Source: Candidatus Nomurabacteria bacterium GW2011_GWD2_36_14
GTDB taxonomy: Bacteria; Patescibacteriota; Minisyncoccia; Phycocordibacterales; UBA9973
Length of the DNA stretch: 64,000 nt
Reading direction: 5' to 3'
NCBI GenBank assembly: GCA_000991405.1
Contig: LBRL01000001.1
Span: forward strand, 3,744-67,743
Shown here: piece by piece, positions 1,309-58,037 of the stretch
Layout: every line of letters begins with the position of its first letter
Numbering within the stretch: the first letter of the stretch is position 1
Notes under the pieces: generated by a model
Told to the model about the DNA's origin: nothing
What the model saw: only the letters and a program-made list of their open reading frames with translations
Database searches by the model: none
Made by a program: the position numbers and the translations under genes

Positions 1309-2364
1309 ATGATTAAGAAACTCACGAGTTCCGTTTTAATTCTCGGGATTATAATAATAAATTTTAGTTTTATAACACCACCCATTGCGATGGCGGCCAG
1401 TTTAACCTCTCTATCAGACACCGTATCCAATTTGACAGCCAGCACTGTAGCCAACCACGTTATCAGATTCACTACTCCGACCGGTGTTCCTGCAAGTGGA
1501 ACGATTATTCTTACTTTCGATAATGGTACCAATACAGGATCTGTTGATTATACAGATGTGGACATTCAAGATGATGGTGTTGATGTTGCTGTTGCAGCAA
1601 CTCCTGTAACTACAACGTGGGGAGTAGCCAGGACATCATCCACTGTTATTACTCTTACCAATGGTTCTGCTGCTGTTGCAGGCGGAAGTGTCATTACTAT
1701 AGATATAGGTACCAATGCAACTTATGGAGTTACAGGTACCCATCAGATTACCAACGGTACTGCGGGTACGACAGTTCTTCGTGTTAGTGGAAGTTTCGGA
1801 GATACAGGGGCCATGTCTACTGCCATTGTTTCCAATGGTGTTGTTTCTTTGTCAGCTGAAGTTCTAGCTTCTCTTACTTTTACTGTTTCTGATAACACCA
1901 TTTACTTTGGTAACTTGAAATCATCTGGTAGTTCATGTTGGGCACAAGGTACTGATCCTGGATATGTCACTTGTCCTACTGTCGCTGAGGCTGAGGCCTT
2001 CAATATGACCGCTGCCACAAATGCACCAACTGGTTATACTATAAGTGTCCAAGGGCCTACTCTAACCTCAGGTTCCAACACTATTACAGCTCTAGCTTCA
2101 GCCACTGCTCCTTCTATTGGTAGTGAACAATTTGGTATACGAGCCAATGCATCAGGTGGAAGTGGAGCCGTAAATGCAACTTATGGCACAGCAGGACAAT
2201 ATGCTTTCACTGCCAATGCTACGACAGCAGTAGCTGTGGCGACAGCCTCAGCTCCTTCGGCTACGACTACATACTCCGTTCGTTATATCGCCAACATTTC
2301 TCCCACAACAGAAGCAGGTAGTTATACCGCGGCACATACTTACATTGCAACGGGTAACTTTTGA
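1309..2364 (+). CDS. Secreted surface protein (paralog 2 of 3), function unknown
   Basis: It has a Sec-type signal peptide (MIKKLTSSVLILGIIIINFSFITPPIAMAA). It is ~65% identical along its whole length to the next ORF and ends in the shared ..TGNF tail. It is T/S/G/A-rich. Confidence 0.6.
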   Translation: MIKKLTSSVLILGIIIINFSFITPPIAMAASLTSLSDTVSNLTASTVANHVIRFTTPTGVPASGTIILTFDNGTNTGSVDYTDVDIQDDGVDVAVAATPVTTTWGVARTSSTVITLTNGSAAVAGGSVITIDIGTNATYGVTGTHQITNGTAGTTVLRVSGSFGDTGAMSTAIVSNGVVSLSAEVLASLTFTVSDNTIYFGNLKSSGSSCWAQGTDPGYVTCPTVAEAEAFNMTAATNAPTGYTISVQGPTLTSGSNTITALASATAPSIGSEQFGIRANASGGSGAVNATYGTAGQYAFTANATTAVAVATASAPSATTTYSVRYIANISPTTEAGSYTAAHTYIATGNF

Positions 2365-2405
2365 TTATTATTAGTTAATTATTGTTATTATTAATTTTAT
2401 TTTTT

Positions 2406-3458
2406 ATGATTAAAAAAATTTTGAGTTTTGTGTTAACGGTCGGAATGGTTGTTATAAATTTTGGATTTATAACACCACAGGTGGTTTCTGCTGCTAATTT
2501 GACTTCTATGTCAGACGTAGTGTCAAATCTAACAGCAAGTGCAGTTGCCAACCATACCATAACCTTTACAACACCTACAGGTCTTGCTTCTGGGGCAACT
2601 CTTATCCTTACCTTTGATAACAGTACCAGTATTGATGCTGCATTAACTTATGCAGACGTTGACTTTAGATATGCTTCCACCGATGTTACTTTGGCGGCGG
2701 CTCCATCTGGAGCAACTATGGGAGTAGTTCGTACTTCAGCAACGGTTCTTACATTTACCAATGGAACTACTGTGATTGCTGGAGGTTCAGTAATAGTGAT
2801 TAAGATAGGTACCAATACAACTATAGGTGGTACTGGAACTCACCAAATAACCAACGGTACTGCTGGCACTACACTCCTTCGTGTTAGTGGCACATTTGGA
2901 GATACAGGAGCTATGTCAATGTCAATAATTTCAAATAGTATCGTAGCTGTCTCAGCTGAAGTTCTCTCCAGTCTTTCCTTTACTGTTTCCAGTAATGCTA
3001 TTTACTTTGGTAACTTAAGAACGGCTGGTGCTTGTTTTGCTCAAAATACAAATCCAGGCTATGTAACTTGTCCGACTACAACAGAAACTGAAGCTTTCAA
3101 TATGACAGCTGGAACAAATGCTACAGCTGGTTATACTATAAGTGTCCAAGGTGACACTCTGACCTCAGGAGCCAATACTATTACAGCCCTAGCTTCAAAC
3201 ACGGCTTCTTCTCCTGGTAGTGAACAATTTGGATTGAGAGCAACAGCTACAGGTGGAGGAGGTGCAGTTCAGGCTCCATATGCAGCCGCTGGTTATGCTT
3301 ATACAGGCACAACATCAACTCCAGCCACAGTGGCTACTGCTTCAGCTCCATCCGCTACGACTACATATTCCGTTCGTTATTTAGCCAACATTTCAGCTGT
3401 AACAGAAGCAGGAAGTTATTCTACCTCTCATACTTATGTAGCAACAGGTAACTTCTAA
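2406..3458 (+). CDS. Secreted surface protein (paralog 3 of 3), function unknown
   Basis: The start was moved to the Met of MIKKILSFVL at 2406, which matches the paralog 2 N-terminus. It is collinear with paralog 2: SNLTAS.VANH.I.FTTPTG, LRVSG.FGDTGAMS, YFGNL, GYVTCPT, GSEQFG(I/L)RA, TTTYSVRY.ANIS, ATGNF. Confidence 0.6.
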   Translation: MIKKILSFVLTVGMVVINFGFITPQVVSAANLTSMSDVVSNLTASAVANHTITFTTPTGLASGATLILTFDNSTSIDAALTYADVDFRYASTDVTLAAAPSGATMGVVRTSATVLTFTNGTTVIAGGSVIVIKIGTNTTIGGTGTHQITNGTAGTTLLRVSGTFGDTGAMSMSIISNSIVAVSAEVLSSLSFTVSSNAIYFGNLRTAGACFAQNTNPGYVTCPTTTETEAFNMTAGTNATAGYTISVQGDTLTSGANTITALASNTASSPGSEQFGLRATATGGGGAVQAPYAAAGYAYTGTTSTPATVATASAPSATTTYSVRYLANISAVTEAGSYSTSHTYVATGNF

Positions 3459-3483
3459 TTATTATATATTTCTTGGTAATTAA

Positions 3484-24805: not shown

Positions 24806-25106
24806 GATAGGATGAAATCCAGATTGAATAGATTGAGTTATGGCAAATCAATCCTCGTTTATTAAGGTTTTAGCATACAAAAGTGTTAAACAATATCATT
24901 GCCAGTAATTATAAATAAAAAATCTAAATAAGGTTTGGTCACCTTGTTGTTTTTTGCGTTTTAACTTTATTAATAGATTAAAACGAAGGCATATATTTAA
25001 AATTTATGAGTAGGTGTGGGCGCGCCGAAGCGTAACGAAGTGGAGCGGAGAGGGCTAAGCGAATAAATTTTAAATATACGCCGAAGTTGTAATCCAAATT
25101 ATTCAT

Positions 25107-38140: not shown

Positions 38141-38283
38141 TGAAAATTTGCACGACCCTCATTCAGTAGAATGACTTACGTGTGCCTCCCGCCTTGTCTC
38201 ACGACACGATTTACTAATCGGTGGTCCGGCTTTCGAATCCTCGTGCCTAATAAAAAAATACCCAAAAGGGTATTTTTTTCTAG

Positions 38284-38356
38284 AGCCGGCACGAGGATTC
38301 GAACCCCGGACATCCACTTTACAAAAGTGGCGCTCTACCAACTGAGCTATGCCGGC
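38284..38356 (-). tRNA. tRNA-Thr (anticodon UGU)
   Basis: The reverse complement GCCGGCATAGCTCAGTTGGTAGAGCGCCACTTTTGTAAAGTGGATGTCCGGGGTTCGAATCCTCGTGCCGGCT folds as a cloverleaf. The anticodon loop is TTTGTAA and the T-loop is TTCGAAT. Confidence 0.85.
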
Positions 38357-40401: not shown

Positions 40402-40596
40402 ATTGTTTTTTGTCTAAGGCGAACCTATAGACTTTATGGTTAATTAATTATAATACTAACCGTTTTTAAGCATTCCAGCTCGCCCGACCATAGGTCTAGG
40501 GCTTATTTACAAAGGTCTTTTAAACAAAAAAGTCCTTCACGGAAAGTACCCACATAATACCAGAAAAAGCATTATTTTGCAAATAGAATTTTCACT

Positions 40597-40623
40597 AATT
40601 CTACTAGACAGGACCTAGTCGAT
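40597..40623 (+). repeat. Degenerate copy (22/27) of the REP-like hairpin ccgactagg-caaga-cctagtcgg
   Basis: tctactagacaggacctagtcgatttt, compared with the canonical copies at 42031 and 42737. Confidence 0.5.
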
Positions 40624-40661
40624 TTTTGGTTTTTTATATTTAAAAGTGCTAATATATTGGA

Positions 40662-42041
40662 ATGGAAGGATTAAATAAAAATACTCCAAAAGAAACAATC
40701 TCAGAAAATAACAGTAATCTTAAAAAGAAAGAAAAACAAATTTCAATTATTGAAATTGATGGTATTAAAATTGAGGCTCAAAAAGAATATTTTGAATATC
40801 CTGAATATATACAAAAAGAAAGTGGTGTTATTGGATATGATAGAACTATAATTGATGACAAATCATTATTTAATATTATAAACAATATATGTAAAAATAA
40901 GGGCATTGATCTTTTAAATGAGGGAGCTTTTGATTTCCATTCTTTGAAAGAAAAGATTATAAATCAATTTTCTACTTTTGTCTTAGACGAAGATCATCGT
41001 CTCAATGCAACTCCTGAATTGATTGAAATGTTTGGTGGAATGAAAAAAGAAGTACCTTCTATTTTTAGAAAAGTAGAAGAAATAATGAGAGAGTTACTCA
41101 AAGGTTTACTTTTAACATTTTCTAATGGAGAATATCCAAATAAGTGCTTTACTCACCAAATGGGTGCAGATTATAATAGAAATCGACGAGATGAATTTAA
41201 ACAAGATCTTGTGGAGAATAAATTTTTTGTTCATAAAATTTATGATATTGATTATGTAAAAGAACAAACCGACAAAAAAGGATTTGATCATACACTATTT
41301 AATGCTACTGGAGGTCTTGAATCATGGAATACTATAAAATCAGATTTGGTAATTTATGACAATACAGGGGAAGAAGTTGAGGCTGGAATGATTGCTAAGC
41401 TTGGTTCCCCTAAATATTTTGAAGGCATAAAAAATGGAAGTTTGTTTGCGTGTACTCCTAAATCAGGCTTTAATGTTGATACTGGAAAATTTTTCTATTC
41501 GCATGAAGGTGGGTTAACAGATCCAGTACCATCTTTTGGATTTTCAATGAAAAATAATATTTTTTTTCAAGAATATTTAAATAAATCATTAGATATATAC
41601 ACAAAAGAAATTAAAGGAATAGATTGGAAAGAATTAGAAGGTGGGGGTATTAACTCTATCGTTCAAGAATTAGTTTTGAGTGATTCTACGGTGCAAGAAA
41701 TAATTTATAAAAAACAAGGAGATAAAGAATATATTAAGGTTGAAAAATATGATGATTCTATTATAAGAGCAGTTAAAAACGTAGTAGAAAAAATAGAAGA
41801 AGATCACGGTATAAAATTGAATGATTACTTAATAAGTTCAGATGTTGTGGGGGATATAATTAGTTCCATGAATTCTAGAAGTGATCGTGAGAAACGCCTT
41901 CCTGTTTTTATAGGTAAAGATGATATTCCACAACTTTGTTGGGGGCACGCTTCTTTCTGTCATTTTATGAGTTCTAAAGGGTTCAATTTTATTAGATTCA
42001 AACATGCAGATCATTTGCCAAATAAAGATAAAACCGACTAG
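40662..42041 (+). CDS. Hypothetical protein (459 aa, no recognisable domain). Its stop codon lies inside a REP-like hairpin
   Basis: It is a long ORF with balanced composition. No motif is recognised. It ends with the TAG embedded in the hairpin at 42031-42060. Confidence 0.5.
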   Translation: MEGLNKNTPKETISENNSNLKKKEKQISIIEIDGIKIEAQKEYFEYPEYIQKESGVIGYDRTIIDDKSLFNIINNICKNKGIDLLNEGAFDFHSLKEKIINQFSTFVLDEDHRLNATPELIEMFGGMKKEVPSIFRKVEEIMRELLKGLLLTFSNGEYPNKCFTHQMGADYNRNRRDEFKQDLVENKFFVHKIYDIDYVKEQTDKKGFDHTLFNATGGLESWNTIKSDLVIYDNTGEEVEAGMIAKLGSPKYFEGIKNGSLFACTPKSGFNVDTGKFFYSHEGGLTDPVPSFGFSMKNNIFFQEYLNKSLDIYTKEIKGIDWKELEGGGINSIVQELVLSDSTVQEIIYKKQGDKEYIKVEKYDDSIIRAVKNVVEKIEEDHGIKLNDYLISSDVVGDIISSMNSRSDREKRLPVFIGKDDIPQLCWGHASFCHFMSSKGFNFIRFKHADHLPNKDKTD

Positions 42042-42060
42042 GCAAGACCTAGTCGGTTTT
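42031..42060. repeat. REP-like hairpin aaaaccgactagg-caaga-cctagtcggtttt (copy 1)
   Basis: A 9-bp perfect stem with a 5-nt loop, and A/T runs on both sides. It is identical to 42737-42768. Confidence 0.85.
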
Positions 42061-42061
42061 G

Positions 42062-42718
42062 TTATTTATTATAATTAAGCCATTCAAAAATTTCTTTTGT
42101 GAATGATTTTTTGTTTGGAAAATATTTTGGAAAGGTTTCTTTATTTAAAATATTGTTTTGAATTCTTTCTATCCCCAAATAATCAAGATAACTACTATAT
42201 TGGTAATTGTATAAATATTCTAAGGTTTCTTTTTTATTTTTAACCCCGACTTCTTTCCAATCTTTTTGTATAAGTTTTATTGGATTTAAGTGAATATATG
42301 AAAATAAGTATTTTAAATAACGCTCTTCACTTACATGCTCTGATTTAAATTTACCTTCAAAAAGTCCACCAGTATGTTTGTATTTTTTATTATAATACAT
42401 TACATATGCAGTAGTTAATTTTTGCATAAATTTGCTTATACTGCCATCTTCTATCTGTGTTATAAGAATATGAAAATGATTAGGCATAATACAAAAAGAT
42501 CCTATTGATACTAACTGCTTGCCCCTTTCAAAATCATATGGGCTTTCTTTTACACCAAGACCAAACATTCTGAAATTATTTTCAGAATTACAAGCAAACA
42601 TAAGACCCATAAAATGAAAACAATCCTCATTGTCATGAAAGATTTTTTGTTTACTATTACCACGATTAAATACATGATAATACTCATTATTAACTAGGTT
42701 TACCTTTCTAATAGACAT
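42062..42718 (-). CDS. IS200/IS605-family Y1 (HuH) transposase of the REP-associated tyrosine transposase (RAYT) type
   Basis: YHVFNRG, the HuH motif MPNHFHILI, and the catalytic Tyr region YLFSYIHLNPIK. The gene is bracketed by identical hairpins. Confidence 0.7.
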   Translation of the reverse strand: MSIRKVNLVNNEYYHVFNRGNSKQKIFHDNEDCFHFMGLMFACNSENNFRMFGLGVKESPYDFERGKQLVSIGSFCIMPNHFHILITQIEDGSISKFMQKLTTAYVMYYNKKYKHTGGLFEGKFKSEHVSEERYLKYLFSYIHLNPIKLIQKDWKEVGVKNKKETLEYLYNYQYSSYLDYLGIERIQNNILNKETFPKYFPNKKSFTKEIFEWLNYNK

Positions 42719-42736
42719 AATTATATTATATACTTA

Positions 42737-42768
42737 AAAACCGACTAGGCAAGACCTAGTCGGTTTTT
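42737..42768. repeat. REP-like hairpin aaaaccgactagg-caaga-cctagtcgg-tttttt (copy 2)
   Basis: It is identical to copy 1 and lies directly upstream of proS. Confidence 0.85.
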
Positions 42769-42801
42769 TGTTTTGACCCAAAGTGATTTTTAGGGTAGTA
42801 T

Positions 42802-45135: not shown

Positions 45136-45910
45136 AAAGCAAATAGCGAAAAAGAGAAAGTTAGTCAAGAATATTATCTTCTTGATAGGCTTTTTATTAT
45201 TATCAGTTGGAGGAGTTTTTGCTTATACAAGCGGAGCTTTGCACTTTATTGGTAGACCTATCTGGAAAGCTAAGACTGCTGTTGTGGACAACATAGAGAG
45301 CAAGGGTTACATTTTCCGTTCAAAGGCTTCCGTATACAAGGACAATGCAAATCTTTTGAATGAAAATGCTCAACTCAAAATTTCCATGATTGATTACAAT
45401 ATTTTGAAAGATGAGAATCTGAAGCTCAAGGAATTATTTGGTCGCACAACTCCCACCAAGGATCTTGTCCTTTCCAGTATTTTAACGAAGCCAAACTTTT
45501 CACCTTATGATACGATCATTATCGATATCGGAACCAACTTGGGTGTAGCAGTAGGGGATAAGGTTTACTCTGACGTCGTTACTCCCTTAGGAGAAGTAAG
45601 TGCCGTCTACTCTGATACATCCTTAGTAACTCTTTATTCCAATCCAGGCCAAGTCACCGAGGCTATGATGGATGGTACCAATACTAGCGTAGAGTTAGTT
45701 GGTCGTGGAGGTGGCAACTTTGAAATGACGATTCCCATAGACTTACCTTATACCAATGGCACCTTCGTTTATCTTCCAAATTTTAAACCGGAGGTAGTAG
45801 CTACGATAGAAGAAGTAATATCCTCTCCCAACGACCCAGTGAAGAAGGTTCTCTTGCGATCTCCCGTCAATGTCCAGAGTCTCAAATGGGTTTTCGTCAG
45901 TCGAGAATAA
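45113..45910 (+). CDS. mreC: Rod-shape determining protein MreC
   Basis: It directly follows mreB. It has an N-terminal transmembrane segment and a coiled coil, then a beta-rich domain. Confidence 0.6.
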   Translation: MIHQFRDKKQIAKKRKLVKNIIFLIGFLLLSVGGVFAYTSGALHFIGRPIWKAKTAVVDNIESKGYIFRSKASVYKDNANLLNENAQLKISMIDYNILKDENLKLKELFGRTTPTKDLVLSSILTKPNFSPYDTIIIDIGTNLGVAVGDKVYSDVVTPLGEVSAVYSDTSLVTLYSNPGQVTEAMMDGTNTSVELVGRGGGNFEMTIPIDLPYTNGTFVYLPNFKPEVVATIEEVISSPNDPVKKVLLRSPVNVQSLKWVFVSRE

Positions 45911-45917
45911 AGCCTGT

Positions 45918-47216
45918 ATGAAGAAAGCTATTGATTTTAAAATTGAAAAAAGGTTAGAGGGATTTCTAGGTAGAGCAGGGACTCTGACTACACCGCATGG
46001 AGTTATTGAGACTCCGTCTTTTGTCGTTGTAGGTACAAAAGGTACAGTCAAGGCCATGACTCCCGAACAACTCAAGGAGATAGGTGTGCAAGTTACACTT
46101 GCCAATACTTATCATCTTTATCTACAACCAGGAAATGAGCTTATACGTGAGGCAGGAGGTTTGCACAAGTTCATGAATTGGCAGGGGCCCATGATGACAG
46201 ACTCTGGTGGATTCCAAGTATTTTCTCTTGGTGTGGCTTACGGCAAAGAGCTTTCCAAAGTTGTTTCTGTAACTGATCCTAGCTTGCTTATTCCGGAAAG
46301 GTCCACGGCAGAAGATGGAGTACCAAGACTTGCAACCATAGGGAACGATGGAGTTTCTTTCCGATCACACTTAGATGGATCGCTTCATTATATAACTCCA
46401 GAAAAGTCTATCGAGATTCAGCACAACTTAGGAGCCGATATTATATTTGCTTTTGATGAATGTACTTCTCCGACTGAGACTGCTCGATACCAAGAAGAAG
46501 CTCTTTCTCGTACTCACTCTTGGGCCAAGAGGAGTTTGGAGGAGCATAAGAAACGGGAGGAAGCAAAGCAAGAATATGCGAATTCTTCACGCTTTACCCT
46601 AAAGGGCTCCGACGCGACTCAGAATTCTCATATTCTTGCTTCACTTCCTCAGGCTCTCTTTGGTATTGTTCAAGGTGGACGTAGTGAAGAACTTAGGAAG
46701 AAGTCTGCTAAAGTTATAGGAGAAATGGACTTCGATGGTTTTGGTATTGGTGGTTCTTTTGCAAAAGAGGATATGTCTACTGCTGTAAAGTGGGTCAATG
46801 AAGTGCTCCCAGAAGACAAGCCTCGCCATTTACTAGGTATCGGTGAACCGGAAGACTTATTTTCTGGAGTAGAAAACGGAGTAGATCTCTTTGACTGCGT
46901 CGGCCCTACTCGCATTGCTCGCAACGGGACAATGTTTACAAAGAACGGCAAGATAAATATTCTCAATGCAAAGTTTGTAAAAGATTTTGGTTCAGTAGAT
47001 GAAGGGTGCGGTTGTAATACTTGCCAGAATTATACTCGAGCTTATCTTTCACATTTATTCCGTGCCAAGGAAATGCTAGGAGCAACCCTTGCTTCTATTC
47101 ATAATGTCTACTTCATCACAAATCTTGTAAAGCAAATGCGCAATGCTATACTAAATGATACATTCCATGAATTTAAAAATGAATTTTTAAAAAATTATGC
47201 CAAACAAAGTATTTAA
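45918..47216 (+). CDS. tgt: Queuine tRNA-ribosyltransferase, carrying an in-frame ~24-aa insertion
   Basis: TPHGVIETPSFV..., LGIGEPEDL and the zinc site CGCNTCQNYTRAYLSHL. The start is the ATG at 45918. The insertion QEYANSSRFTLKGSDATQNSHILA lies between WAKRS and ALFGIVQGG. Confidence 0.9.
   Translation: MKKAIDFKIEKRLEGFLGRAGTLTTPHGVIETPSFVVVGTKGTVKAMTPEQLKEIGVQVTLANTYHLYLQPGNELIREAGGLHKFMNWQGPMMTDSGGFQVFSLGVAYGKELSKVVSVTDPSLLIPERSTAEDGVPRLATIGNDGVSFRSHLDGSLHYITPEKSIEIQHNLGADIIFAFDECTSPTETARYQEEALSRTHSWAKRSLEEHKKREEAKQEYANSSRFTLKGSDATQNSHILASLPQALFGIVQGGRSEELRKKSAKVIGEMDFDGFGIGGSFAKEDMSTAVKWVNEVLPEDKPRHLLGIGEPEDLFSGVENGVDLFDCVGPTRIARNGTMFTKNGKINILNAKFVKDFGSVDEGCGCNTCQNYTRAYLSHLFRAKEMLGATLASIHNVYFITNLVKQMRNAILNDTFHEFKNEFLKNYAKQSI
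46569..46638 (+). repeat. In-frame palindromic miniature element (copy in tgt)
   Basis: caagaatatgcgaattct-tcacgctttaccctaaagggctccgacgcgactc-agaattctcatattcttg. It has 18-bp inverted arms and a conserved 30-bp core that is nearly identical in uvrA and uvrC. Confidence 0.85.
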
Positions 47217-49356
47217 ATTAAAGAGTGAATATAAACCCGATGGTGATCAGCCCAAGGCTATAAAAGATCTTCTAGAGGGTCTTAAGAAGGGTTTCCGTAA
47301 GCAAACACTTCTGGGTGCTACTGGTACAGGCAAGACTTTTACTATAGCCAATGTTATCGAAGAATGGGGGAAGCCGACCTTAGTCATAGCTCACAATAAA
47401 ACTCTCGCAGCTCAACTTGCTCAAGAATTTAGGGAGTTTTTCCCTGATGCCGCTGTTCACTATTTCGTGTCTTATTATGACTATTATCAGCCAGAAGCTT
47501 ATATGCCAGTGACTGATACTTATATAGAGAAGGACGCTCAGATAAACAAAGAGATAGACAGGCTTCGTCATGCTACGACGCAGTCTCTACTTACTCGTCC
47601 AGACGTCATTATTGTAGCTTCGGTCTCTTGTATTTATGGTCTAGGAAGTCCAGAAGAATATGAGAAGGTAAATTTAAAACTTGAAATTGGTTCTAAAATT
47701 AGCCGAACCGATATTATGAGAAAATTACTTGGAGTTCATTTTGAAAGAACGAATTCAGACCTTACTCCAGGAACTTTCCGTTCTATTGGAGATAGAGTAG
47801 AAGTCATGCCTATATCGGAGACTTTTATTTATCAGATAGAATTTGCAGGAGGTGCTATTTCTAAAATTTTAAAAGTAGACCCTGTGTCTGCTCATGTTTT
47901 GAAAGAAGAGCAAGGAATATTCCTTTTCCCTGCCAAGCATTTTATTACCGAGACAGAGAAAGTAAAAGTGGCGCTTAAGAATATTAAATTAGAATTGACA
48001 CAGCAATTAAAAAAGTTTGAGAAGGAAGGCAAGCTTCTTGAGGCAGAGAGAATTAAAAGACGAACCAATTATGATTTAGCTATGATAAAGGAAGTTGGCT
48101 ATTGTAGTGGTATCGAGAATTACAGTAGACAGCTTTCTGGAAAGAAGGAAGGGGAAGCCCCAGATACACTCCTCTCATATTTCAAGAGTGATTTCTTAAC
48201 TATTATCGATGAGTCTCATGTGACCCTGCCTCAGCTAGGTGGTATGTACGCTGGTGATGCCTCTCGCAAGAAGACTCTTGTAGACTTCGGCTTCCGTCTG
48301 CCTTCTGCCAAGGACAATAGGCCTCTTAAATACAATGAATTTGAAGAAAGAATTGGAGATGTCATATACGTATCAGCTACTCCAAGTGAGACAGAAAGGA
48401 CTACAAGTGCTCAGGTAGTCGAACAGATTATTCGCCCTACAGGGCTTATAGATCCAGAAATATTGGTAAGGCCAGTCTCTGTAATGGGTTCCCTTAGGTC
48501 GGACCTAGGGGCAAATAGTAAAGAATTAAAGACCCTAGGTCCGACCTATGGTCCATACCCTGGACAAATAGAAGACTTTGTACAAGAAGCCGATAGAGTT
48601 ATCAAGAAAGGTTTTCGTGCTATTGCTACGACTCTTACTAAGAAGATGGCAGAGGATCTAACTTTGTTCTTAAAAGAAAAGGGATTCAAAGCAGAGTACT
48701 TACATAGTGATATTAAAACCATAGAGAGAATTCAAATACTTTCTTCTTTTAGAAGAGGGGACTTCGACATTCTTATCGGAGTCAATTTGCTTCGCGAAGG
48801 ATTAGACTTGCCAGAGTTAGCCCTCATAGGAATCTTGGATGCAGACAAAGAAGGCTTCCTTCGCTCAGAAACTTCGCTTATTCAGATTATAGGGCGTGCT
48901 GCTCGTAACGTAGAAGGTAGAGTAGTACTATATGCTGATCATATGACCAAGGCGCTAGAGAGTGCCATAGGCGAGACGAACAGACGAAGAGATATACAGA
49001 TAGCTTACAACAAGAAGCACGGTATCACCCCCAAGACTATTATAAAAAATATTAAAGACATTACAGAAGAGCTCGAGAACAAACACGAGAAGGCTGTGAA
49101 TGTAGAGCTAGACTTGGATGTAGAATTGTTCAAGAAGACTTTTGTAACTAGCAAGAGCAATAAGGGTAAGGGAGAAAGAGAGTCTATCAAGAATTTGCTT
49201 CTTTCAGATGAAGACAGGAATAAAAGTATTTACGAGAAGATAATAAAGATAAAAGAGAAGGAGATGAATAAGGCAGTGAAAGAATTAGACTTCGAAACAG
49301 CTGCAATACTTCGAGATGAGATAATTGTTTTGAATGATAAATTTTTAGGCAAATAA
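47197..49356 (+). CDS. uvrB: Excinuclease ABC subunit B
   Basis: Walker A GATGTGKT, the helicase motifs, and the C-terminal UVR domain ETAAILRDEI. Confidence 0.95.
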   Translation: MPNKVFKLKSEYKPDGDQPKAIKDLLEGLKKGFRKQTLLGATGTGKTFTIANVIEEWGKPTLVIAHNKTLAAQLAQEFREFFPDAAVHYFVSYYDYYQPEAYMPVTDTYIEKDAQINKEIDRLRHATTQSLLTRPDVIIVASVSCIYGLGSPEEYEKVNLKLEIGSKISRTDIMRKLLGVHFERTNSDLTPGTFRSIGDRVEVMPISETFIYQIEFAGGAISKILKVDPVSAHVLKEEQGIFLFPAKHFITETEKVKVALKNIKLELTQQLKKFEKEGKLLEAERIKRRTNYDLAMIKEVGYCSGIENYSRQLSGKKEGEAPDTLLSYFKSDFLTIIDESHVTLPQLGGMYAGDASRKKTLVDFGFRLPSAKDNRPLKYNEFEERIGDVIYVSATPSETERTTSAQVVEQIIRPTGLIDPEILVRPVSVMGSLRSDLGANSKELKTLGPTYGPYPGQIEDFVQEADRVIKKGFRAIATTLTKKMAEDLTLFLKEKGFKAEYLHSDIKTIERIQILSSFRRGDFDILIGVNLLREGLDLPELALIGILDADKEGFLRSETSLIQIIGRAARNVEGRVVLYADHMTKALESAIGETNRRRDIQIAYNKKHGITPKTIIKNIKDITEELENKHEKAVNVELDLDVELFKKTFVTSKSNKGKGERESIKNLLLSDEDRNKSIYEKIIKIKEKEMNKAVKELDFETAAILRDEIIVLNDKFLGK

Positions 49357-49623: not shown

Positions 49624-49724
49624 AATGATTTAATTTCATTCTTATATTACTTATTTCAAAATCTTTGTCAAGCTTATGGTTTTGTGTTATTATGTGACTA
49701 GTTAAATATTGATTCACCCCCACA

Positions 49725-49784
49725 CCCATATTTTTATTGCAGGTAATCCTGCGTTGAAAACTATAAAAATATAGGTGTGGGGGT
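49725..49784. promoter_or_regulatory. GC-rich inverted repeat cacccccacacccatatttttat ... ataaaaatataggtgtgggggt, with G5/C5 tracts, upstream of uvrA
   Basis: It has 21-bp arms with one mismatch and a ~15-nt spacer containing the mini-hairpin gcagg-taatc-ctgc. A further tract gggggtatacaccccc follows. Confidence 0.4.
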
Positions 49785-49922: not shown

Positions 49923-52598
49923 ATGATAAAAAAAAGTGAAAATTCTGACGGGGCAAGAATAATAATAAAAGGAGCTCGTACTCACAATCTGAAGAATATT
50001 AGTGTTGAGATGCCTAGGAATAAAATGATAGTTATTACTGGTATGTCAGGCTCTGGGAAGTCTTCTTTGGCGTTTGATACTATCTTTGCTGAAGGTCAGC
50101 GTCGCTATGTGGAGAGTCTTTCGGCTTATGCCCGCCAATTCTTGAATCAAATGCCGAAGCCCGATGTCGATGAGATTACTGGTCTTTCTCCTGCTATTTC
50201 TATAGACCAGAAGTCTCGGTCGAACAATCCTCGTTCGACAGTTGCGACCATCACTGAAATATATGACTATCTTCGTGTTCTTTATGCACGTATCGGGCAC
50301 CCTCATTGTCCAGAATGTGGCAATGAGATCAAGAAGCTTTCAAATGATGAAATACTTCACTTTGCCATAGATAAGATAAAGAATTTTCAAAAGGATAACA
50401 AGAAAAAGAAAGTAATGGGTGTCGAATGGAACGAAGCACCTATCTCCATTCTTGCTCCTGTTGTTCGAGGTAGGAAAGGTGAGTATTATCAACTTCTTTA
50501 TGATTTACTCAATAAAGGATTTGCCGAGGTTCGTCTCGATGGACAGATCAAGAAACTAAGAGAGAGAATCGATATTACGAAGACAAAGAAACACGACATA
50601 GAAGTTATCGTAGATACTTTCGCTATTCATGAATTTAAAGACAATGAGAAGGATTCTTACTCAAGATTAGCTGAGAGTGTTGAGAGGGCTCTATTAGAGT
50701 CAGACGGACTTGTAATTATTAAAATAGATGAAGATGAATACCTTATGTCTTCCAAGTTCTCTTGTGCTATTGACGGCTTCGCTTTTCCTGAAATAGAGCC
50801 TAGGCTCTTCTCTTTCAATTCTCCGTACGGAGCCTGTCCTACTTGTAATGGGCTTGGTACCAAGTATTTTGGTGGCACAGAGCCCTGCGATGATTGTAAG
50901 GGCTTGCGATTACGACCTGAAGCACTTCATGTATATTTAGGCCAATCCGCTTCGCAGAAACATAAAAATTCTTCCCGCTTTACCCTAAAGGGCTCCGACG
51001 CGGATAAGAATTTTCATGTTTCTGCTTCGCTTAACATTGTAGATGTTACGAAGTTATCAATCGCTGATGTTGCTGACTTTTTTATTGAACTACAGTTGAA
51101 TGATCAAGAAAAGGAAATTTCGAAGGTTGTCATAAAAGAGATTGAAGCTCGAATACAATTCTTACTGAACGTAGGGCTTGATTATTTATCACTCGATAGA
51201 AAAGCCAATACTCTCTCAGGAGGAGAAGCACAGAGGATACGCTTGGCTTCACAGTTAGGTTCACGACTTGTCGGAGCTTTGTATGTACTCGATGAACCGA
51301 CGATAGGTTTACACCAGAGAGATAATGATAAACTCATCAAGACACTAGAAAATCTTCGTGACCTAGGGAATACTATCATAGTAGTTGAACACGACGAAGA
51401 TACTATATATGCATCGGATTATATTGTAGATATAGGCCCGAAAGCTGGAGTACATGGAGGGCAAGTTATCGTGTCGGATTATTTACAAGATTTACTAGAT
51501 GCACCAAAGAACGTTTCTAATTCTAGAACTTTGGCATATCTTAGAAATGAAGTCAGAATAGAAATTCCAGAGAAAAGAAGGAATAGTGATAAGGGTGCTA
51601 TTAAAATAATTGGAGGTAAAATTTTCAATATTGAAAATTTAAATGCGGAAGTTCCACTAGGAAAGCTTGTAACTATTACTGGAGTATCAGGAAGTGGGAA
51701 GAGTTCCTTTGTGTATGAGATTATTCACAAGAATCTTCAGGCCAGATACGAAAGGAAGTTTAGAACAGCAAAGATTTTCAACTGTGCATCTTTCACTGGG
51801 ACGGAATATGCTTCTCGCGTCGTTCTTATCGATCAGTCTCCGATAGGCCGTACTCCTCGCTCCAACTTGGCTACTTATACAGGCGCCTTTACTCATATCC
51901 GTGACATGTTTGCCTTAAGTGAAGAAGCAAGGCTCAAAGGTTGGAAGGCCAATAGATTCTCTTTCAATGTGAAAGGTGGGCGTTGTGAAGCTTGTGAAGG
52001 TAATGGCGAGGTAGCGGTAGAGATGCACTTCCTTCCTACTGTGTATGTCACTTGTGACGTATGTAATGGCAAGAGATTCGATAAGGAGACCCTGACTGTG
52101 AAGTACAAGAAGAAGAATATTTATGAAGTTCTTCAAATGACAGTTGAAGAAGCGATTGTGTTTTGGGAAGATATTCCGGCTGTTTATGATCGTATGAAGA
52201 CTCTTATGGAAGTCGGTCTTGGCTATGTGAAACTTGGTCAGTCTGCTACAACTCTCTCAGGAGGAGAAGCACAACGTGTGAAAATTTCTTCAGAACTTTT
52301 TAGACCATATGAAGAGAAAACAATATATCTATTAGACGAGCCAACAGTTGGACTTCATTACGATGATGTAGCTAAGTTGCTTGAAGTTTTGAATAGACTT
52401 GTAAATAAAGGCAATAGTGTAGTGGTAATAGAGCACAATATGGATATTATAAAGTCTTCAGACCATATCATAGATATTGGTCCTGAAGGAGGGTTAGGTG
52501 GTGGCAAGATTGTAGCTAAGGGAACTCCTGAAGAAGTTGCTAATACAATAGGAAGTCATACGGGTAAATATCTTAAAAAAGTTTTGAAGAGGAAATAA
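49923..52598 (+). CDS. uvrA: Excinuclease ABC subunit A (short, 891 aa), carrying an in-frame insertion
   Basis: It has two ABC modules (GMSGSGKSSL, GVSGSGKSS, LSGGEAQR twice) and zinc fingers. The insertion QKHKNSSRFTLKGSDADKNFHVSA follows PEALHVYLG. Confidence 0.95.
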   Translation: MIKKSENSDGARIIIKGARTHNLKNISVEMPRNKMIVITGMSGSGKSSLAFDTIFAEGQRRYVESLSAYARQFLNQMPKPDVDEITGLSPAISIDQKSRSNNPRSTVATITEIYDYLRVLYARIGHPHCPECGNEIKKLSNDEILHFAIDKIKNFQKDNKKKKVMGVEWNEAPISILAPVVRGRKGEYYQLLYDLLNKGFAEVRLDGQIKKLRERIDITKTKKHDIEVIVDTFAIHEFKDNEKDSYSRLAESVERALLESDGLVIIKIDEDEYLMSSKFSCAIDGFAFPEIEPRLFSFNSPYGACPTCNGLGTKYFGGTEPCDDCKGLRLRPEALHVYLGQSASQKHKNSSRFTLKGSDADKNFHVSASLNIVDVTKLSIADVADFFIELQLNDQEKEISKVVIKEIEARIQFLLNVGLDYLSLDRKANTLSGGEAQRIRLASQLGSRLVGALYVLDEPTIGLHQRDNDKLIKTLENLRDLGNTIIVVEHDEDTIYASDYIVDIGPKAGVHGGQVIVSDYLQDLLDAPKNVSNSRTLAYLRNEVRIEIPEKRRNSDKGAIKIIGGKIFNIENLNAEVPLGKLVTITGVSGSGKSSFVYEIIHKNLQARYERKFRTAKIFNCASFTGTEYASRVVLIDQSPIGRTPRSNLATYTGAFTHIRDMFALSEEARLKGWKANRFSFNVKGGRCEACEGNGEVAVEMHFLPTVYVTCDVCNGKRFDKETLTVKYKKKNIYEVLQMTVEEAIVFWEDIPAVYDRMKTLMEVGLGYVKLGQSATTLSGGEAQRVKISSELFRPYEEKTIYLLDEPTVGLHYDDVAKLLEVLNRLVNKGNSVVVIEHNMDIIKSSDHIIDIGPEGGLGGGKIVAKGTPEEVANTIGSHTGKYLKKVLKRK
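50955..51024 (+). repeat. In-frame palindromic miniature element (copy in uvrA)
   Basis: cagaaacataaaaattctt-cccgctttaccctaaagggctccgacgcggat-aagaattttcatgtttctg. The arms are complementary to each other but differ from those of the tgt and uvrC copies. Confidence 0.85.
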
Positions 52599-52992: not shown

Positions 52993-54258
52993 ATGAATAG
53001 TCAACAGGTCAAAAAAATAGGTTTGCCAGATAAATCAGGGGTTTATTTTTTCAAGGTGGGGGATAAGATTCTCTATATAGGCAAGGCCACTTCTTTGCGG
53101 GATAGGGTAAAGAGCTATTTTTCTAAGGATATCATCGTTACCAGAGGGTCACATATCTTAGATATGACGGTAAAAGCGGATAGGGTAGAATGGCAGGAAA
53201 CTGGTAGTGTGCTGGAAGCCTTAATACTTGAGGCGAACTTAATAAAGAAATATAAGCCGAAATACAATACCAAAGAGAAAGACAATAAGAGTTTCAACTA
53301 TGTCTGCATTACCAAAGATAAATTACCCAAGGTTTTAATTGTTCGTGGTAGAGGAATGGATAAAAAGTTGTATAGCAAAGTTTATGGTCCATTCCCCAAT
53401 GGTCAGCAATTAAAAGAAGCGATGAAAATCATTCGTAGAATTTTCCCGTATTTTGATAATGATTCGTTAAAGAAAAATAATAGAGAATTTTACAAACAAA
53501 TAGGATTAGTACCTATAGTTGAATATAAAAACAATATAAAGAATCTTAAATTATTTTTCGAAGGGAAAAAGAAAAGCATAATAATAAATTTGAAGAAGGA
53601 AATGCTAGCTTTTGCAAAAAAGAAAGAATTCGAGAAAGCTGGTGAAGTTAAGAATAGAATTTTTGCTTTGAATCATATAAATGATGTTGCTCTTATAAAA
53701 GAAGATTTAATTGCTCCACAGAAAAACGCTTCACAGGAATATGCGAATTTTTCGCGCTTTACCCTAAAGGGCTCCGACGCGACTCAAAATTCGCATATTC
53801 CTGTTTCGCTTTTTCGTATCGAAGCTTATGATGTGGCTCACATGGGAGGCAAGGATATGGTGGGAGTTATGACTGTCGTTGAGAATGGTGAAGTCAATAA
53901 AAGTGAATACAAGAAGTTCATTATCAGAACTCAAAGTGATGCGAATGACACAGGAGCACTCGAGGAAGTACTTTCTCGTAGATTGCGTCATACAGAGTGG
54001 GGACTACCTAGTTTGGTTGTTGTCGACGGTAGTACCGCTCAAGTAAATGTGGCCAAGAGAATTCTTGCCAGATATCAGTTTAAGGTACCTATAGTCGGAG
54101 TTGTGAAAGATGACAAACATAGACCGAAAGCACTTATAGGGAGTGAAGAAATAATTAAAATATACAAAAAGCAGATCCTACTTGCCAATAGTGAGTCGCA
54201 TAGGTTTGCAATTACTTTCCATAAACAAAAGAGAAATAAAAGTTTCTTAAATAAGTAA
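52993..54258 (+). CDS. uvrC: UvrC-like excinuclease (GIY-YIG N-terminus; short, lacks the C-terminal HhH/RNaseH-like region), carrying an in-frame insertion
   Basis: The GIY-YIG motif is GVYFFKVGDKILYIGKATSLRDRVKSYF. A UvrBC-interaction-like region is present. The insertion is QEYANFSRFTLKGSDATQNSHIPV. Confidence 0.75.
   Translation: MNSQQVKKIGLPDKSGVYFFKVGDKILYIGKATSLRDRVKSYFSKDIIVTRGSHILDMTVKADRVEWQETGSVLEALILEANLIKKYKPKYNTKEKDNKSFNYVCITKDKLPKVLIVRGRGMDKKLYSKVYGPFPNGQQLKEAMKIIRRIFPYFDNDSLKKNNREFYKQIGLVPIVEYKNNIKNLKLFFEGKKKSIIINLKKEMLAFAKKKEFEKAGEVKNRIFALNHINDVALIKEDLIAPQKNASQEYANFSRFTLKGSDATQNSHIPVSLFRIEAYDVAHMGGKDMVGVMTVVENGEVNKSEYKKFIIRTQSDANDTGALEEVLSRRLRHTEWGLPSLVVVDGSTAQVNVAKRILARYQFKVPIVGVVKDDKHRPKALIGSEEIIKIYKKQILLANSESHRFAITFHKQKRNKSFLNK
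53734..53803 (+). repeat. In-frame palindromic miniature element (copy in uvrC)
   Basis: caggaatatgcgaatttt-tcgcgctttaccctaaagggctccgacgcgactc-aaaattcgcatattcctg. It has perfect 18-bp arms. Confidence 0.85.
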
Positions 54259-57349: not shown

Positions 57350-57963
57350 ATTTATATCTTAGCAGAAAAAGGACTTTGAAGCGAAGGTAAATAAAAAAAC
57401 GAATAAATCTGATATTAACAAAATTTAATCGTTTTAGTTAAAAGGGAACCCCCTAAATATTATGAAGTATGGTTGGTCATAACATACTTCAGAATTTTCA
57501 TAAGGCTTTTCGTTTAGCATAACAGTAGGATAATTATCCCACGATTCCAAATAAAATGTTTCTTTTTTCATGGAATAAATATTATTTATCATTTATATAC
57601 TTTTTTAACACCCAACTTGTTAGTCTGAGCATTAAAATAAAATATATAATAAGAAAAAATAAGGTAAAATATGCCCAAAAATAATTTTGCCCCATAATAT
57701 ATTATTTTTTAATTTTACAAATATAACTGTCAATATAATGATACAGGGGATTAAACATGTATGCAAATAATTTTGTGTATCACAAGTTACTACATGACCG
57801 CGAGTACGCTTCTCGACTCTTACAGAGTCAGTACACCTTTTCCATTCGTGAGTACACTCATATGGAAAAGGTTTTCTCGTCCTGTACGGAAAGCATACAA
57901 ATGCTTTCCTAGGGTCCACCCAAGAAAAAAGGCACGCTTTCGCGTGTCTCTTTTTTCTACGGG

Positions 57964-58037
57964 TGGACCCTACAGGACTCGAACCTGCCACCTCCTCATT
58001 GCAAATGAGGCGCTCTAGCCAGATGAGCTAAGGGCCC
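57964..58037 (-). tRNA. tRNA-Ala (anticodon UGC)
   Basis: The reverse complement GGGCCCTTAGCTCATCTGGCTAGAGCGCCTCATTTGCAATGAGGAGGTGGCAGGTTCGAGTCCTGTAGGGTCCA has the G3:U70 identity pair and the anticodon loop TTTGCAA. Confidence 0.85.

What the first reader, a model, noticed from the sequence alone, without database searches (positions are those of the whole stretch)
46569..46638. A ~70-bp palindromic miniature element is inserted in-frame in three unrelated repair/modification genes (tgt, uvrA, uvrC)
The same nucleotide block occurs inside tgt (46569-46638), uvrA (50955-51024) and uvrC (53734-53803). It consists of 18-19-bp terminal inverted arms and a nearly invariant 30-bp core, cgctttaccctaaagggctccgacgcg. 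All three copies sit on the coding strand. All three begin at codon position 1 with ca(g/a), and each adds about 24 residues (QEYANSSRFTLKGSDATQNSHI..) without breaking the reading frame. The reverse orientation has stop codons in all three frames, and forward frame 2 has TAA. The observed orientation and phase are therefore among the few survivable ones, which is the pattern expected for a mobile element purified by selection. Within each copy the two arms are perfectly complementary. The arms differ between copies (caagaatatgcgaattct, caggaatatgcgaatttt, cagaaacataaaaattctt), so the hairpin or cruciform potential is maintained copy by copy. Comparison with E. coli Tgt and UvrA indicates that the host loops are about 26-28 aa longer here, consistent with insertion rather than ancestral sequence. 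This is the behaviour described for Rickettsia palindromic elements (RPEs), which also land in-frame in proteins. I cannot tell from the sequence whether an equivalent family has been described in this lineage.
Basis: partly seen in the sequence, partly recalled or inferred. Interest (0 to 1): 0.9.

Follow-up and report, generated by a model that had tools for sequence, protein, structure and literature searches.

The report
Hairpin repeat inserted in-frame in Patescibacteria genes
A roughly 81-base hairpin-forming DNA repeat, found in many ultra-small Patescibacteria (CPR bacteria), lies between genes and also inside tgt, uvrA and uvrC, always in the one reading frame where it reads as a harmless 27-residue loop, much as the palindromic elements of Rickettsia do.

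Summary
An identical 25-nt core occurs three times in the window, with 0 expected by chance. Each copy is an 81-nt (27-codon) in-frame insert: tgt 46563-46643, uvrA 50949-51029, uvrC 53728-53808.

The same core is found in many Patescibacteria MAGs and metagenome contigs, giving 147 distinct copies. The element is one long hairpin. The 20-30-bp stem varies in sequence but covaries strongly. The apical loop of 21 nt, TTTACCCTAAAGGGCTCCGAC, is nearly invariant.

- All 39 copies inside genes are on the coding strand in one frame (FTLKGSD). They occupy at least 13 sites in UvrA, UvrC, Tgt, RNase HII, DprA, IleRS, a WecG/TagA-family glycosyltransferase and RpoC.
- Close relatives have empty sites.
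- The Tgt, UvrA and UvrB sites are hot spots that hold different hairpin families in different relatives.
- Intergenic copies nearly fill operon spacers and show a 50:12 orientation bias.

No Rfam family, paper or viral contig matched. The best reading is a new family, probably a superfamily, of REP/RPE-like palindromic elements. They are presumably mobile and are filtered by selection when they land in genes. How they move is unknown. Intragenic palindromes in uvr genes, aminoacyl-tRNA synthetase genes and tRNA-modification genes are already documented in other phyla, so this is a new variant of a known kind.

The parts
46563..46643 (+). Family-A palindromic element inside tgt: 81 nt, 27 codons (AKQEYANSSRFTLKGSDATQNSHILAS). 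Stem P1 arms 46569-46586 / 46621-46638. Stem P2 46590-46592 / 46614-46616. Invariant apical loop 46593-46613, holding the mini-hairpin CCC-TAAA-GGG at 46597-46606.
   Evidence: Boundaries come from the empty alleles L074, L080 and L081 and are good to about 3 nt.
46557..46650 (+). Full hairpin at the tgt site. It includes the outer stem GAGGAAG / CTTCCTC, made of host codons (EE.. / LPQ). The empty allele L074 also has this stem, as GAGGAAA / TTTCCTC.
   Evidence: (I11).
50949..51029 (+). Family-A element inside uvrA: 27 codons (ASQKHKNSSRFTLKGSDADKNFHVSAS). Apical loop 50979-50999. P2 variant CCGC / GCGG.
   Evidence: Empty alleles L043, L178 and L180, and a family-B element at the same site in L020.
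53728..53808 (+). Family-A element inside uvrC: 27 codons (ASQEYANFSRFTLKGSDATQNSHIPVS). Apical loop 53758-53778. The 18-nt arms are perfectly complementary.
   Evidence: A clean 27-codon gap in L004 and L017, and a truncated remnant in L020.
45870..47216 (+). Host gene tgt (queuine tRNA-ribosyltransferase).
   Evidence: (PF01702).
49923..52598 (+). Host gene uvrA.
52993..54258 (+). Host gene uvrC (short form, 421 aa).
   Evidence: and 53 (homologue P0121).
24972..25096 (-). Related hairpin element of another family (B). It has similar AT-rich arms and the ACTCA linker, but a longer GC-rich core. It lies between the ORF ending at 24805 and rpoB (starting 25107).
   Evidence: I10; 29.1 bits. 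The same core sits in-frame in tgt (L078), uvrA (L020) and uvrB (L004, L041).
48491..48551 (+). A different in-frame palindrome inside uvrB. The arms CCTTAGGTCGGACCTAGGG / CCCTAGGTCCGACCTATGG are 95% complementary. It sits at a site that is empty in L128 and holds family B in L004 and L041.
   Evidence: (I12).

Best explanation
The three blocks are copies of a dispersed palindromic repeat specific to Patescibacteria. It belongs to the same kind of element as REP and RPE repeats.

The unit is about 81 nt and folds as one long hairpin. From the base upward it has:
- a short outer stem;
- a symmetric pyrimidine internal loop, T(T)C opposite T(T)C;
- a 20-25-bp stem whose sequence differs between copies but stays paired;
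- a small bulge (ACTCA);
- a 3-4-bp GC stem;
- a nearly invariant 21-nt apical loop that holds a mini-hairpin.

**Shown.** Copies occur at many unrelated loci and in many genomes. Close relatives differ in whether a site is filled or empty. Identical 74-nt copies sit at two loci of one MAG. Most copies lie in the short spacers between co-directional genes. Copies inside genes are found only on the coding strand, in the one frame that reads as a hydrophilic, stop-free 27-residue peptide. In Tgt this peptide is a low-confidence loop absent from solved structures.

**Inferred.**
- The element is, or recently was, mobile and non-autonomous.
- The hairpin with its loop is what the unknown propagating machinery recognises. 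This would explain why the loop is invariant and the stem only needs to pair.
- Insertions in other frames, in the other orientation, or at buried protein sites are removed by selection, leaving the pattern seen.
- The better pairing of the minus strand and the 4:1 orientation bias suggest a single-stranded intermediate or a strand-specific constraint.
- Pairing of the arms may also be restored by templated repair within the palindrome.
For: **Copies and structure**
- exact core in the window, in 73 GTDB stretches from many Patescibacteria MAGs (6-11 exact copies per MAG in the best-sampled ones), and in more than 107 metagenome stretches.
- 87.9% of cells paired against 66.3% in shuffles; 399 double changes against 128; covariation 0.486 against 0.07-0.13 when the structure is slid.
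- core variants keep or lengthen the mini-hairpin (CCCAG..CTGGG, CCCGTC..GACGGG).

**Frame and orientation**
- 39 of 39 genic copies are in + frame 0.
- at least 13 sites in 8 proteins.
- frame +2 or one reverse frame is stop-free in 16 and 10 of 75 copies, yet neither is ever used.
- 50 sense against 12 antisense copies in co-directional spacers, with median gaps of about 11 nt.
- the minus strand folds better in 68 of 73 copies. A:C mismatches on the plus strand (which read as G:U on the minus strand) outnumber G:T by 109 to 40.

**Presence and absence**
- presence/absence and family turnover at the tgt, uvrA, uvrB and uvrC sites.
- L011 and L016, from the same MAG, are identical over 74 nt with unrelated flanks.

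**Location in the protein**
- the insert is an extra, low-confidence loop in Tgt.

**Precedent**
- PMC3733652 and PMC10969869: intragenic REP/RPE elements in uvrA and uvrB, other excision- and recombination-repair genes, aminoacyl-tRNA synthetase genes and tRNA-modification genes.
Against: - No transposase, RAYT or other dedicated enzyme was seen next to any copy. Neighbours are housekeeping genes.
- There are no clean target-site duplications. Flanks only fit a degenerate YTNCR motif on both sides.
- The arms vary more than the loop, which is the reverse of a classical MITE with conserved terminal repeats.
- The exact-match searches inflate the apparent invariance of the core. The covariance-model (CM) search found about 10% variant cores and a sister subfamily (TTTACCCYAGAGGGGCCCTAC).
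- Hairpins in genes are as intact as intergenic ones. Purely selfish, decaying insertions would not predict this, so some constraint or repair acts on them in place.
- No actual movement has been observed.
Confidence: 0.7

Rival explanations
1. It is mainly a host-useful cis element rather than selfish DNA. One version is an RNA hairpin in operon transcripts that stabilises, processes or attenuates mRNA, as proposed for REP and ERIC repeats. Another is a single-stranded DNA site used in replication or DNA uptake. In either case a conserved Patescibacteria protein would recognise the invariant loop. Copies inside genes would be tolerated by-products.
For: - The loop is conserved across many lineages and the stem covaries.
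- Copies nearly fill the spacers between co-directional genes and show a strong orientation bias.
- Hairpins are kept intact even inside genes.
- REPs are thought to act as RNA elements in similar positions (PMC3733652).
Against: - Sites are filled or empty among close relatives, and unrelated hairpin families occupy the same sites. A fixed regulatory role at a given locus is therefore unlikely.
- The strand that folds better is usually the untranscribed one.
- No U-tract or other known regulatory signature was seen, and there is no Rfam family.
Confidence: 0.2
2. The arms are not carried by the element. Only the GC-rich core is inserted, by template switching or fold-back synthesis at existing small palindromes. 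The stem is built locally by inverted copying of host flanks and is then kept perfect by repair within the palindrome. In this view the elements are products of a mutational process, not of transposition.
For: - The family-D hairpin at the tgt site uses host codons (KRE.EK) as its left arm. The right arm follows them with compensating changes between L075 and L079. A D copy elsewhere in the same MAG has unrelated arms.
- Outer stems at tgt and uvrC are host sequence.
- Some empty sites are themselves palindromes: 7 bp in L074, 9 bp in the uvrC of L004, and window 53333-53415.
Against: - Family-A arms are clearly homologous between different genes and loci within a lineage. L011 and L016 are identical over 74 nt.
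- Other empty sites (L081, L178, L180) are not palindromic.
- An identical 21-nt core at over a hundred loci still needs a copying source.
Confidence: 0.15
3. The block is removed before or during translation, as a mini-intron or a translational bypass element, so the peptide is never made.
For: The hairpin is strong. CPR bacteria are known for insertions in rRNA genes (my own knowledge, not tested here).
Against: All 39 genic copies are in frame and free of stops, and the inserts are whole numbers of codons. A removed element would be under no such constraint.
Confidence: 0.03
4. It is a conserved peptide module selected for a function in the host proteins.
For: The peptide FTLKGSD is conserved in several proteins.
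Against: - About 73% of copies lie between genes.
- Unrelated hairpin families encoding unrelated peptides replace it at the same Tgt, UvrA and UvrB sites.
- The insert is predicted to be disordered.
- Close relatives do without it.
Confidence: 0.02

Closest known systems
Rickettsia palindromic elements (RPE-1 to RPE-10)
   Same: Both are short palindromic repeats in a reduced-genome, host-dependent bacterium. Both occur between genes and in-frame inside unrelated housekeeping genes, where they add a short peptide at sites compatible with the fold. No transposase is known for either (PMC10969869; PMC3733652).
   Different: - The lineage is different (Patescibacteria) and there is no evident sequence relation.
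- The unit is 81 nt, against the ~150 bp given for RPEs in PMC10969869.
- The architecture is one long covarying stem capped by an invariant 21-nt loop.
- All 39 genic copies use a single frame.
- Several hairpin families share the same codon-level hot spots.
GTAG- and CGTC-tagged REP families, including intragenic REPs and head-to-head dimers (Di Nocera et al. 2013, PMC3733652)
   Same: - Both are mostly intergenic, lying between co-directional genes and close to ORF ends.
- A subset sits inside genes and encodes 20-30 residues.
- Host genes are enriched for excinuclease ABC proteins, aminoacyl-tRNA synthetases and tRNA-modifying enzymes.
- CGTC REPs also lack a dedicated transposase.
   Different: - REP units are 20-40 bp, with a 5-13-bp stem, a terminal GTAG or CGTC tag and a short tail.
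- Here CGTC occurs only inside the apical loop, on the minus strand.
- Here the stem is 20-30 bp.
- Here the conserved part is the loop, not the stem.
Bacterial MITEs (for example Correia/NEMIS, ERIC, RUP)
   Same: Both are small, non-coding, AT-rich units with inverted-repeat ends. Both are dispersed, are often co-transcribed with neighbouring genes, and occasionally form in-frame fusions (PMC10969869).
   Different: The terminal repeats are not conserved in sequence. There is no clear target-site duplication and no parent insertion sequence was identified.
GC clusters of yeast mitochondrial genomes (comparison from my own knowledge)
   Same: Both are GC-rich palindromic cores scattered in an AT-rich genome. 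Both fall into several families, show optional in-frame insertions in a protein gene, and move by an unknown mechanism.
   Different: GC clusters are eukaryotic organelle elements with no sequence relation to these. This comparison was not tested here.

Membership tests
Rickettsia palindromic elements (RPE) | Palindromic repeat able to form a stable hairpin | tested here: met
   Folding z = -5.7 to -9.4. Covariation in the stem.
Rickettsia palindromic elements (RPE) | Inserted in-frame in several unrelated protein genes, as well as intergenically | tested here: met
   39 of 39 genic copies are in frame, at 13 or more sites in 8 proteins. About 73% of copies are intergenic.
Rickettsia palindromic elements (RPE) | Sequence homology to one of the RPE families, and occurrence in Rickettsia | not tested
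   No RPE sequences were available to compare. All records carrying the element are titled Patescibacteria/CPR or uncultured bacterium. There was no Rfam hit.
CGTC/GTAG REP families | Short stem-loop (20-40 bp) with a GTAG or CGTC tag at one end, a 5-13-bp stem, a short loop and a short unpaired tail (PMC3733652; CGTC families: stem 8-9 bp, loop 4-5 nt, 3-nt tail) | tested here: not met
   The unit is 81 nt with a 20-30-bp stem. CGTC occurs only inside the loop, on the minus strand (CGCGTCGGAGCCC). The mini-hairpin next to it is 3-4 bp.
CGTC/GTAG REP families | Association with a RAYT (IS200/IS605-type tyrosine transposase) gene flanked by the repeats. This applies to GTAG REPs only. | not testable with these tools
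   Only stretches of up to about 15 kb around copies were held, and whole genomes were not searchable. Inspected neighbours are housekeeping genes.
MITE | Terminal inverted repeats conserved within the family | tested here: inconclusive
   Inverted arms are always present. Their sequence varies between copies, with compensating changes, and only lineage subfamilies share arms.
MITE | Target-site duplication flanking each copy | tested here: inconclusive
   In 23 of 74 copies the first internal loop at or near the stem base reads the same on both sides, most often T(T)C. However, the identical copies L011, L016 and L034 have imperfect flanking repeats (2-4 of 5 positions).
MITE | Derivation from, and mobilisation by, an autonomous insertion sequence | not testable with these tools
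   No longer element with the same ends was seen in 188 loci. The viral contig scan found nothing.
Described structured RNA families (Rfam 15) | Match to a curated covariance model | tested here: not met
   Only tRNAs reached the gathering score in the window. On L058, the one element-bearing locus where the permissive scan (L005, L058, L059) reported anything at the element, only sub-threshold microRNA-precursor and plastid 3'-UTR hairpin models overlapped it.
Intron or translational bypass element | The interruption breaks the frame or carries stops, so it must be removed or skipped | tested here: not met
   All copies are in frame, stop-free and a whole number of codons.

The most novel reading that the evidence does not exclude
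The family-A element may be one member of a superfamily of hairpin elements with interchangeable GC-rich cores: A, B, D, the ILFERSSDEG type, the uvrB type and others. These would home repeatedly to the same codon-level sites in conserved genes (tgt, uvrA, uvrB, uvrC).

They would propagate without any transposase of their own, as single-stranded hairpins or by template switching. The arms would be partly rebuilt from the host flank and kept paired by repair within the palindrome.

That would be an insertion mechanism not yet described for bacteria. It could also explain how transposase-less palindromes such as RPEs and CGTC REPs spread.
Probability: 0.2. Interest if true: 0.85.

Novelty: new variant of a known kind. 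Interest (0 to 1): 0.62.

Why it matters
Palindromes that code for protein were long treated as a peculiarity of Rickettsia and a few REP-rich species. How they spread without a transposase is still open. This element shows the same behaviour in the candidate phyla radiation, another lineage of reduced, host-dependent bacteria.

The data are unusually clean:
- one frame in 39 of 39 genic copies;
- a nearly invariant loop on a covarying stem;
- filled and empty alleles among close relatives;
- hot spots holding at least eight hairpin families at one site of Tgt.

Thousands of Patescibacteria metagenomes exist. Fresh insertions, donor-target junctions and strand bias relative to replication could therefore be read directly from population data, which makes the mechanism testable.

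There is also a practical side. These elements inflate and vary the length of conserved marker proteins, and they can cause mis-assemblies in CPR MAGs. One contig joins uvrC to rnhB at the element.

Tried and rejected
1. **Peptide searches.** A doubled 56-aa consensus found nothing because of the word index, which wasted one search. The 31-column profile against 1.84 billion representatives gave 4 hits. Only one was informative: P0121, a UvrC carrying the element at the same site.
2. **Rfam.** Neither the gathering-score scan nor the permissive scan found a family.
3. **Literature.** Searches for the sequence itself, and for palindromic elements or MITEs in CPR/Patescibacteria, returned nothing relevant.
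4. **Viral contigs.** No match.
5. **Transposase between paired copies.** In L056 the two copies flank pth and dprA, which are housekeeping genes.
6. **Clean target-site duplication.** Rejected. The flanks only fit a degenerate YTNCR motif, and the T(T)C/T(T)C pattern is better read as a symmetric internal loop of the hairpin.
7. **Insertion always into an existing palindrome.** Rejected as a general rule. L074, the uvrC site of L004 and window 53333-53415 are palindromic, but L081, L178 and L180 are not.
8. **A trans target complementary to the loop.** No other site in the window matches 12 nt of the loop with at most 1 mismatch in any meaningful way.
9. **A and B as one family.** They share GCTCCGRCGCG and CGCTTW, but the alignment is weak, so this is left as a lead only.
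Full report
**1. The observation**

The 25-nt core CTTTACCCTAAAGGGCTCCGACGCG occurs three times in the window, at 46592, 50978 and 53757. All three are on the + strand. No match appeared in 100 dinucleotide-preserving shuffles, even with three mismatches allowed.

The repeat finder reports a three-copy family of 78 nt at 81-90% identity: 46569-46646, 50955-51032 and 53734-53811. The flanking sequences do not align.

The copies lie in the ORFs 45870-47216, 49923-52598 and 52993-54258. These are Tgt (PF01702), UvrA and UvrC. All three copies are in one frame, TTT ACC CTA AAG GGC TCC GAC = FTLKGSD, and carry no stop.

- The arms are perfect only in uvrC. The tgt and uvrA copies have one mismatch each.
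- The insert is 81 nt, not about 70.
- The hairpin extends beyond the stated coordinates.
- One further forward frame is stop-free in the tgt and uvrC copies.

**2. Anatomy**

Each copy folds as a single long hairpin, far more stable than shuffled sequence (z = -5.7 to -9.4).

I aligned 73 copies from many genomes and counted pairs on a structure I specified. From the base upward the structure is:
- a short outer stem;
- a symmetric internal loop, most often TC/TC or TTC/TTC, 22-25 positions from the core;
- a stem of about 20 bp whose sequence differs widely between copies;
- a 3' bulge, often ACTCA;
- a 3-4-bp GC stem, which itself covaries in L010, L053, L070 and L046;
- a 21-nt apical loop, TTTACCCTAAAGGGCTCCGAC, which holds the mini-hairpin CCC-TAAA-GGG.

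On the pair counts, 87.9% of cells are paired against 66.3% in shuffles. There are 399 cells with changes on both sides against 128. The covariation score is 0.486, against 0.125 for shuffles and 0.07-0.13 when the structure is slid by 1-3 columns.

A covariance model built from the alignment found further copies with variant cores. Several of them lengthen the mini-hairpin with complementary bases: CCCAG-AGTA-CTGGG in L034 and CCCGTC...GACGGG in L069. A sister subfamily has the core TTTACCCYAGAGGGGCCCTAC.

The loop is therefore highly conserved but not strictly invariant. The exact-match searches overstate its invariance.

**3. Distribution**

The 22-nt core is present in 73 stretches of one-genome-per-species GTDB contigs. 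All of these come from records titled Patescibacteria/CPR (Nomurabacteria, Nealsonbacteria, Vogelbacteria, Paceibacterota, Parcubacteria, Minisyncoccales, 'Saccharibacteria') or uncultured bacterium. The best-sampled MAGs hold 6-11 exact copies each.

A viral contig scan found none. After removing duplicates there are 147 distinct copies.

Two copies in one MAG, L011 and L016, are identical over 74 nt and have unrelated flanks.

**4. Copies inside genes**

Thirty-nine copies have at least 45 open codons on each side. All 39 are on the coding strand in frame 0 (earlier subsets).

They occupy at least 13 different sites:
- three in UvrA;
- three in UvrC;
- one in Tgt;
- one in RNase HII;
- two in DprA;
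- one in a class-I aminoacyl-tRNA synthetase (IleRS by its motifs);
- one in a WecG/TagA glycosyltransferase (Pfam);
- one in RpoC (recognised from its motifs).

Across 75 copies, frame +0 is stop-free in 48, frame +2 in 16 and one reverse frame in 10. The other three frames are never stop-free.

If about half of the stop-free possibilities are frame +0, then 13 independent sites all in +0 has a probability near 1e-4. This is my own arithmetic. Stop avoidance is therefore not the whole filter.

The +0 peptide is hydrophilic (ASQEYANSSRFTLKGSDATQNSHI). The +2 peptide is hydrophobic and rich in Cys and Phe. This difference gives a plausible second filter. A strand-specific insertion step would give a third.

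**5. The inserts are insertions**

*UvrC.* L004 (80% identical) and L017 lack exactly the 27 codons. L020 keeps only GCTTCA + CATATCCCTGCTTCGCTT, a deletion derivative of the element.

*Tgt.* I aligned the 120 closest homologues (73-100% identity).
- P0029, P0042, P0050, P0081, P0083, P0084 and P0107 are empty at the site.
- Most of the others carry some insert there.
- The inserts belong to at least eight unrelated peptide families, and some homologues carry two in tandem.
- The DNA of five representatives shows that each of these inserts is a strong hairpin with its own GC-rich core.

*UvrA.* At the window's site, L043, L178 and L180 are empty and L020 holds family B.

*UvrB.* The corresponding site holds a different palindrome in the window (48491-48551). 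It holds family B in L004 and L041, and nothing in L128.

These are therefore hot spots with rapid turnover.

Solved Tgt structures align up to query residue 217 and resume at 245. In the AlphaFold model, residues 225-240 have pLDDT below 50 and follow a long helix. In UvrA the element sits where the window protein has about 57 residues and solved UvrA proteins have about 144.

**6. Copies between genes**

I used a crude ORF caller for this analysis.

Among copies lying between co-directional genes, 50 have the element's + strand as the sense strand and 12 have the opposite orientation. Four lie between divergent genes and three between convergent genes. The median distance from the 85-nt element to either flanking ORF is about 11 nt. 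The element therefore nearly fills the spacer.

The minus strand nevertheless folds better in 68 of 73 copies, with a mean of -40.5 against -33.3 kcal/mol. Stem mismatches are mostly A:C on the + strand, which read as G:U on the minus strand: 109 against 40 (78 against 27).

Hairpins in genes are at least as intact as those between genes: 15.6 against 14.8 of 18 pairs matched.

**7. What it most likely is**

The best reading is a REP/RPE-like, non-autonomous palindromic element. It is probably one family of a larger set, and selection has filtered where it can persist inside genes.

Shown:
- dispersal across many loci and genomes;
- presence/absence differences between close relatives;
- identical copies at different loci of one MAG;
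- use of a single frame;
- location in a loop of the protein;
- covariation in the stem.

Inferred:
- mobility itself;
- recognition of the loop and hairpin by an unknown enzyme;
- a single-stranded or strand-specific step.

I found no transposase near any copy and no clean target-site duplication.

**8. Unresolved points**

*Palindromic empty sites.* Some empty sites are palindromes: GAGGAAA/TTTCCTC in L074, TATGGAAGT/ACTTCCATA in the uvrC of L004, and window 53333-53415 at UvrC site 2. Others are not: L081, L178 and L180.

*Family D arms.* At the tgt site the family-D hairpin uses host codons as its left arm. The right arm matches them with compensating changes between L075 and L079. A D copy elsewhere in the same MAG has unrelated arms. 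This hints at local extension of palindromes or at repair within them. It is the basis of the more novel reading.

*Shared framework.* Families A, B and C share the ACTCA linker and the CTTCGCAG...CTGCTTCG ends. Families A and B also share GCTCCGRCGCG. This may indicate a common framework.

**9. Comparison with what is known**

Rfam has no matching family. I found no paper that describes such elements in CPR bacteria, and none that contains the core sequence.

The behaviour itself is known.
- RPEs insert in-frame in many Rickettsia genes (PMC10969869).
- Di Nocera et al. (PMC3733652) report intragenic GTAG and CGTC REPs that encode 20-30 residues. Many of these lie in excinuclease ABC genes, aminoacyl-tRNA synthetase genes and tRNA-modification genes. 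The CGTC REPs have no dedicated transposase.

The present element fails the structural definition of those REP families, which requires a tag at one end and a 5-13-bp stem. Unlike a classical MITE, it conserves the loop rather than the ends. I therefore file it as a new variant of a known kind and not as a member of any named family.

Noticed in passing
window 48491-48551 (inside uvrB, ORF 47197-49356): A different in-frame palindrome. The arms CCTTAGGTCGGACCTAGGG / CCCTAGGTCCGACCTATGG are 95% complementary, and each arm is itself nearly palindromic. The site is empty in L128 and holds a family-B hairpin in L004 and L041, so all four neighbouring genes (tgt, uvrB, uvrA, uvrC) carry hairpin hot spots.
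   Followed up: partly
window 24972-25096 (minus strand), between the ORF ending at 24805 and rpoB (25107): A family-B hairpin element. Its arms and ACTCA linker resemble family A, but it has a longer GC-rich core. The same core occurs in-frame in tgt (L078), uvrA (L020) and uvrB (L004, L041), and in either orientation.
   Followed up: partly
Tgt homologues P0001-P0120, at the site equivalent to window 46563: At least eight unrelated insert families occupy this one site among proteins 73-100% identical. Examples are ILFERSSDEG..ARPSQKE, NWSGSSSSLIRGPENEQ, LEVQPLAGFGGCTS, HENRRCGRAGARNERRGISDFQEQ and KYCSFSGPRMREDE. Some homologues carry tandem doubles, and a few are empty.
   Followed up: partly
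L134 (metagenome contig Ga0209083_1036664, 2223 nt): One open frame joins the N-terminal two-thirds of UvrC to the C-terminal part of RNase HII exactly at a family-A element. This is either a mis-assembly at the repeat or recombination between two copies.
   Followed up: no
window 53333-53415 (inside uvrC): An imperfect host palindrome with the inner arms GGAATGGA / TCCATTCC. It lies exactly at the UvrC site where L020 and L069 carry a family-A element.
   Followed up: partly
L004:509-612 (tgt of Nomurabacteria GW2011_GWE2_34_25): A chimeric copy. Its left arm is identical to the window's tgt copy, but its core is of the sister subfamily and its right arm is of the uvrA type, so the hairpin no longer pairs. 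This suggests conversion between copies.
   Followed up: partly
window 49923-52598 (uvrA), residues 314-370: Here the window's UvrA has about 57 residues where solved UvrA proteins have about 144 (chain residues 305-448). A domain is therefore missing, and the element sits in the shortened linker.
   Followed up: no
window 38224-38247 next to the tRNA gene at 38284-38356: A 24-nt inverted copy (92% complementary) of the 5' end of the tRNA gene (window 38288-38311) lies about 40 nt away from it.
   Followed up: no
window 40596-40633, 42030-42067, 42737-42774: Three copies of a terminator-like hairpin, AAAACCGACTAGGCAAGACCTAGTCGGTTTT (71-92% identical).
   Followed up: no
window 1303-2371 and 2400-3465: A tandem duplication of about 1.1 kb at 72-76% identity, apparently a pair of paralogous genes.
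   Followed up: no
window 49716-49784 and 57910-57972: Two further strong intergenic hairpins with GC-rich ends (ACCCCCACACCC.../...GGTGTGGGGGT and TAGGGTCCACCC.../...GGGTGGACCCTA). They may belong to other element families.
   Followed up: no
window 45918-47213 (Tgt), residues 103-137: A second segment of about 31 residues is absent from Zymomonas Tgt and has pLDDT below 50. Unlike the hairpin insert, it is conserved in all 63 aligned homologues.
   Followed up: no
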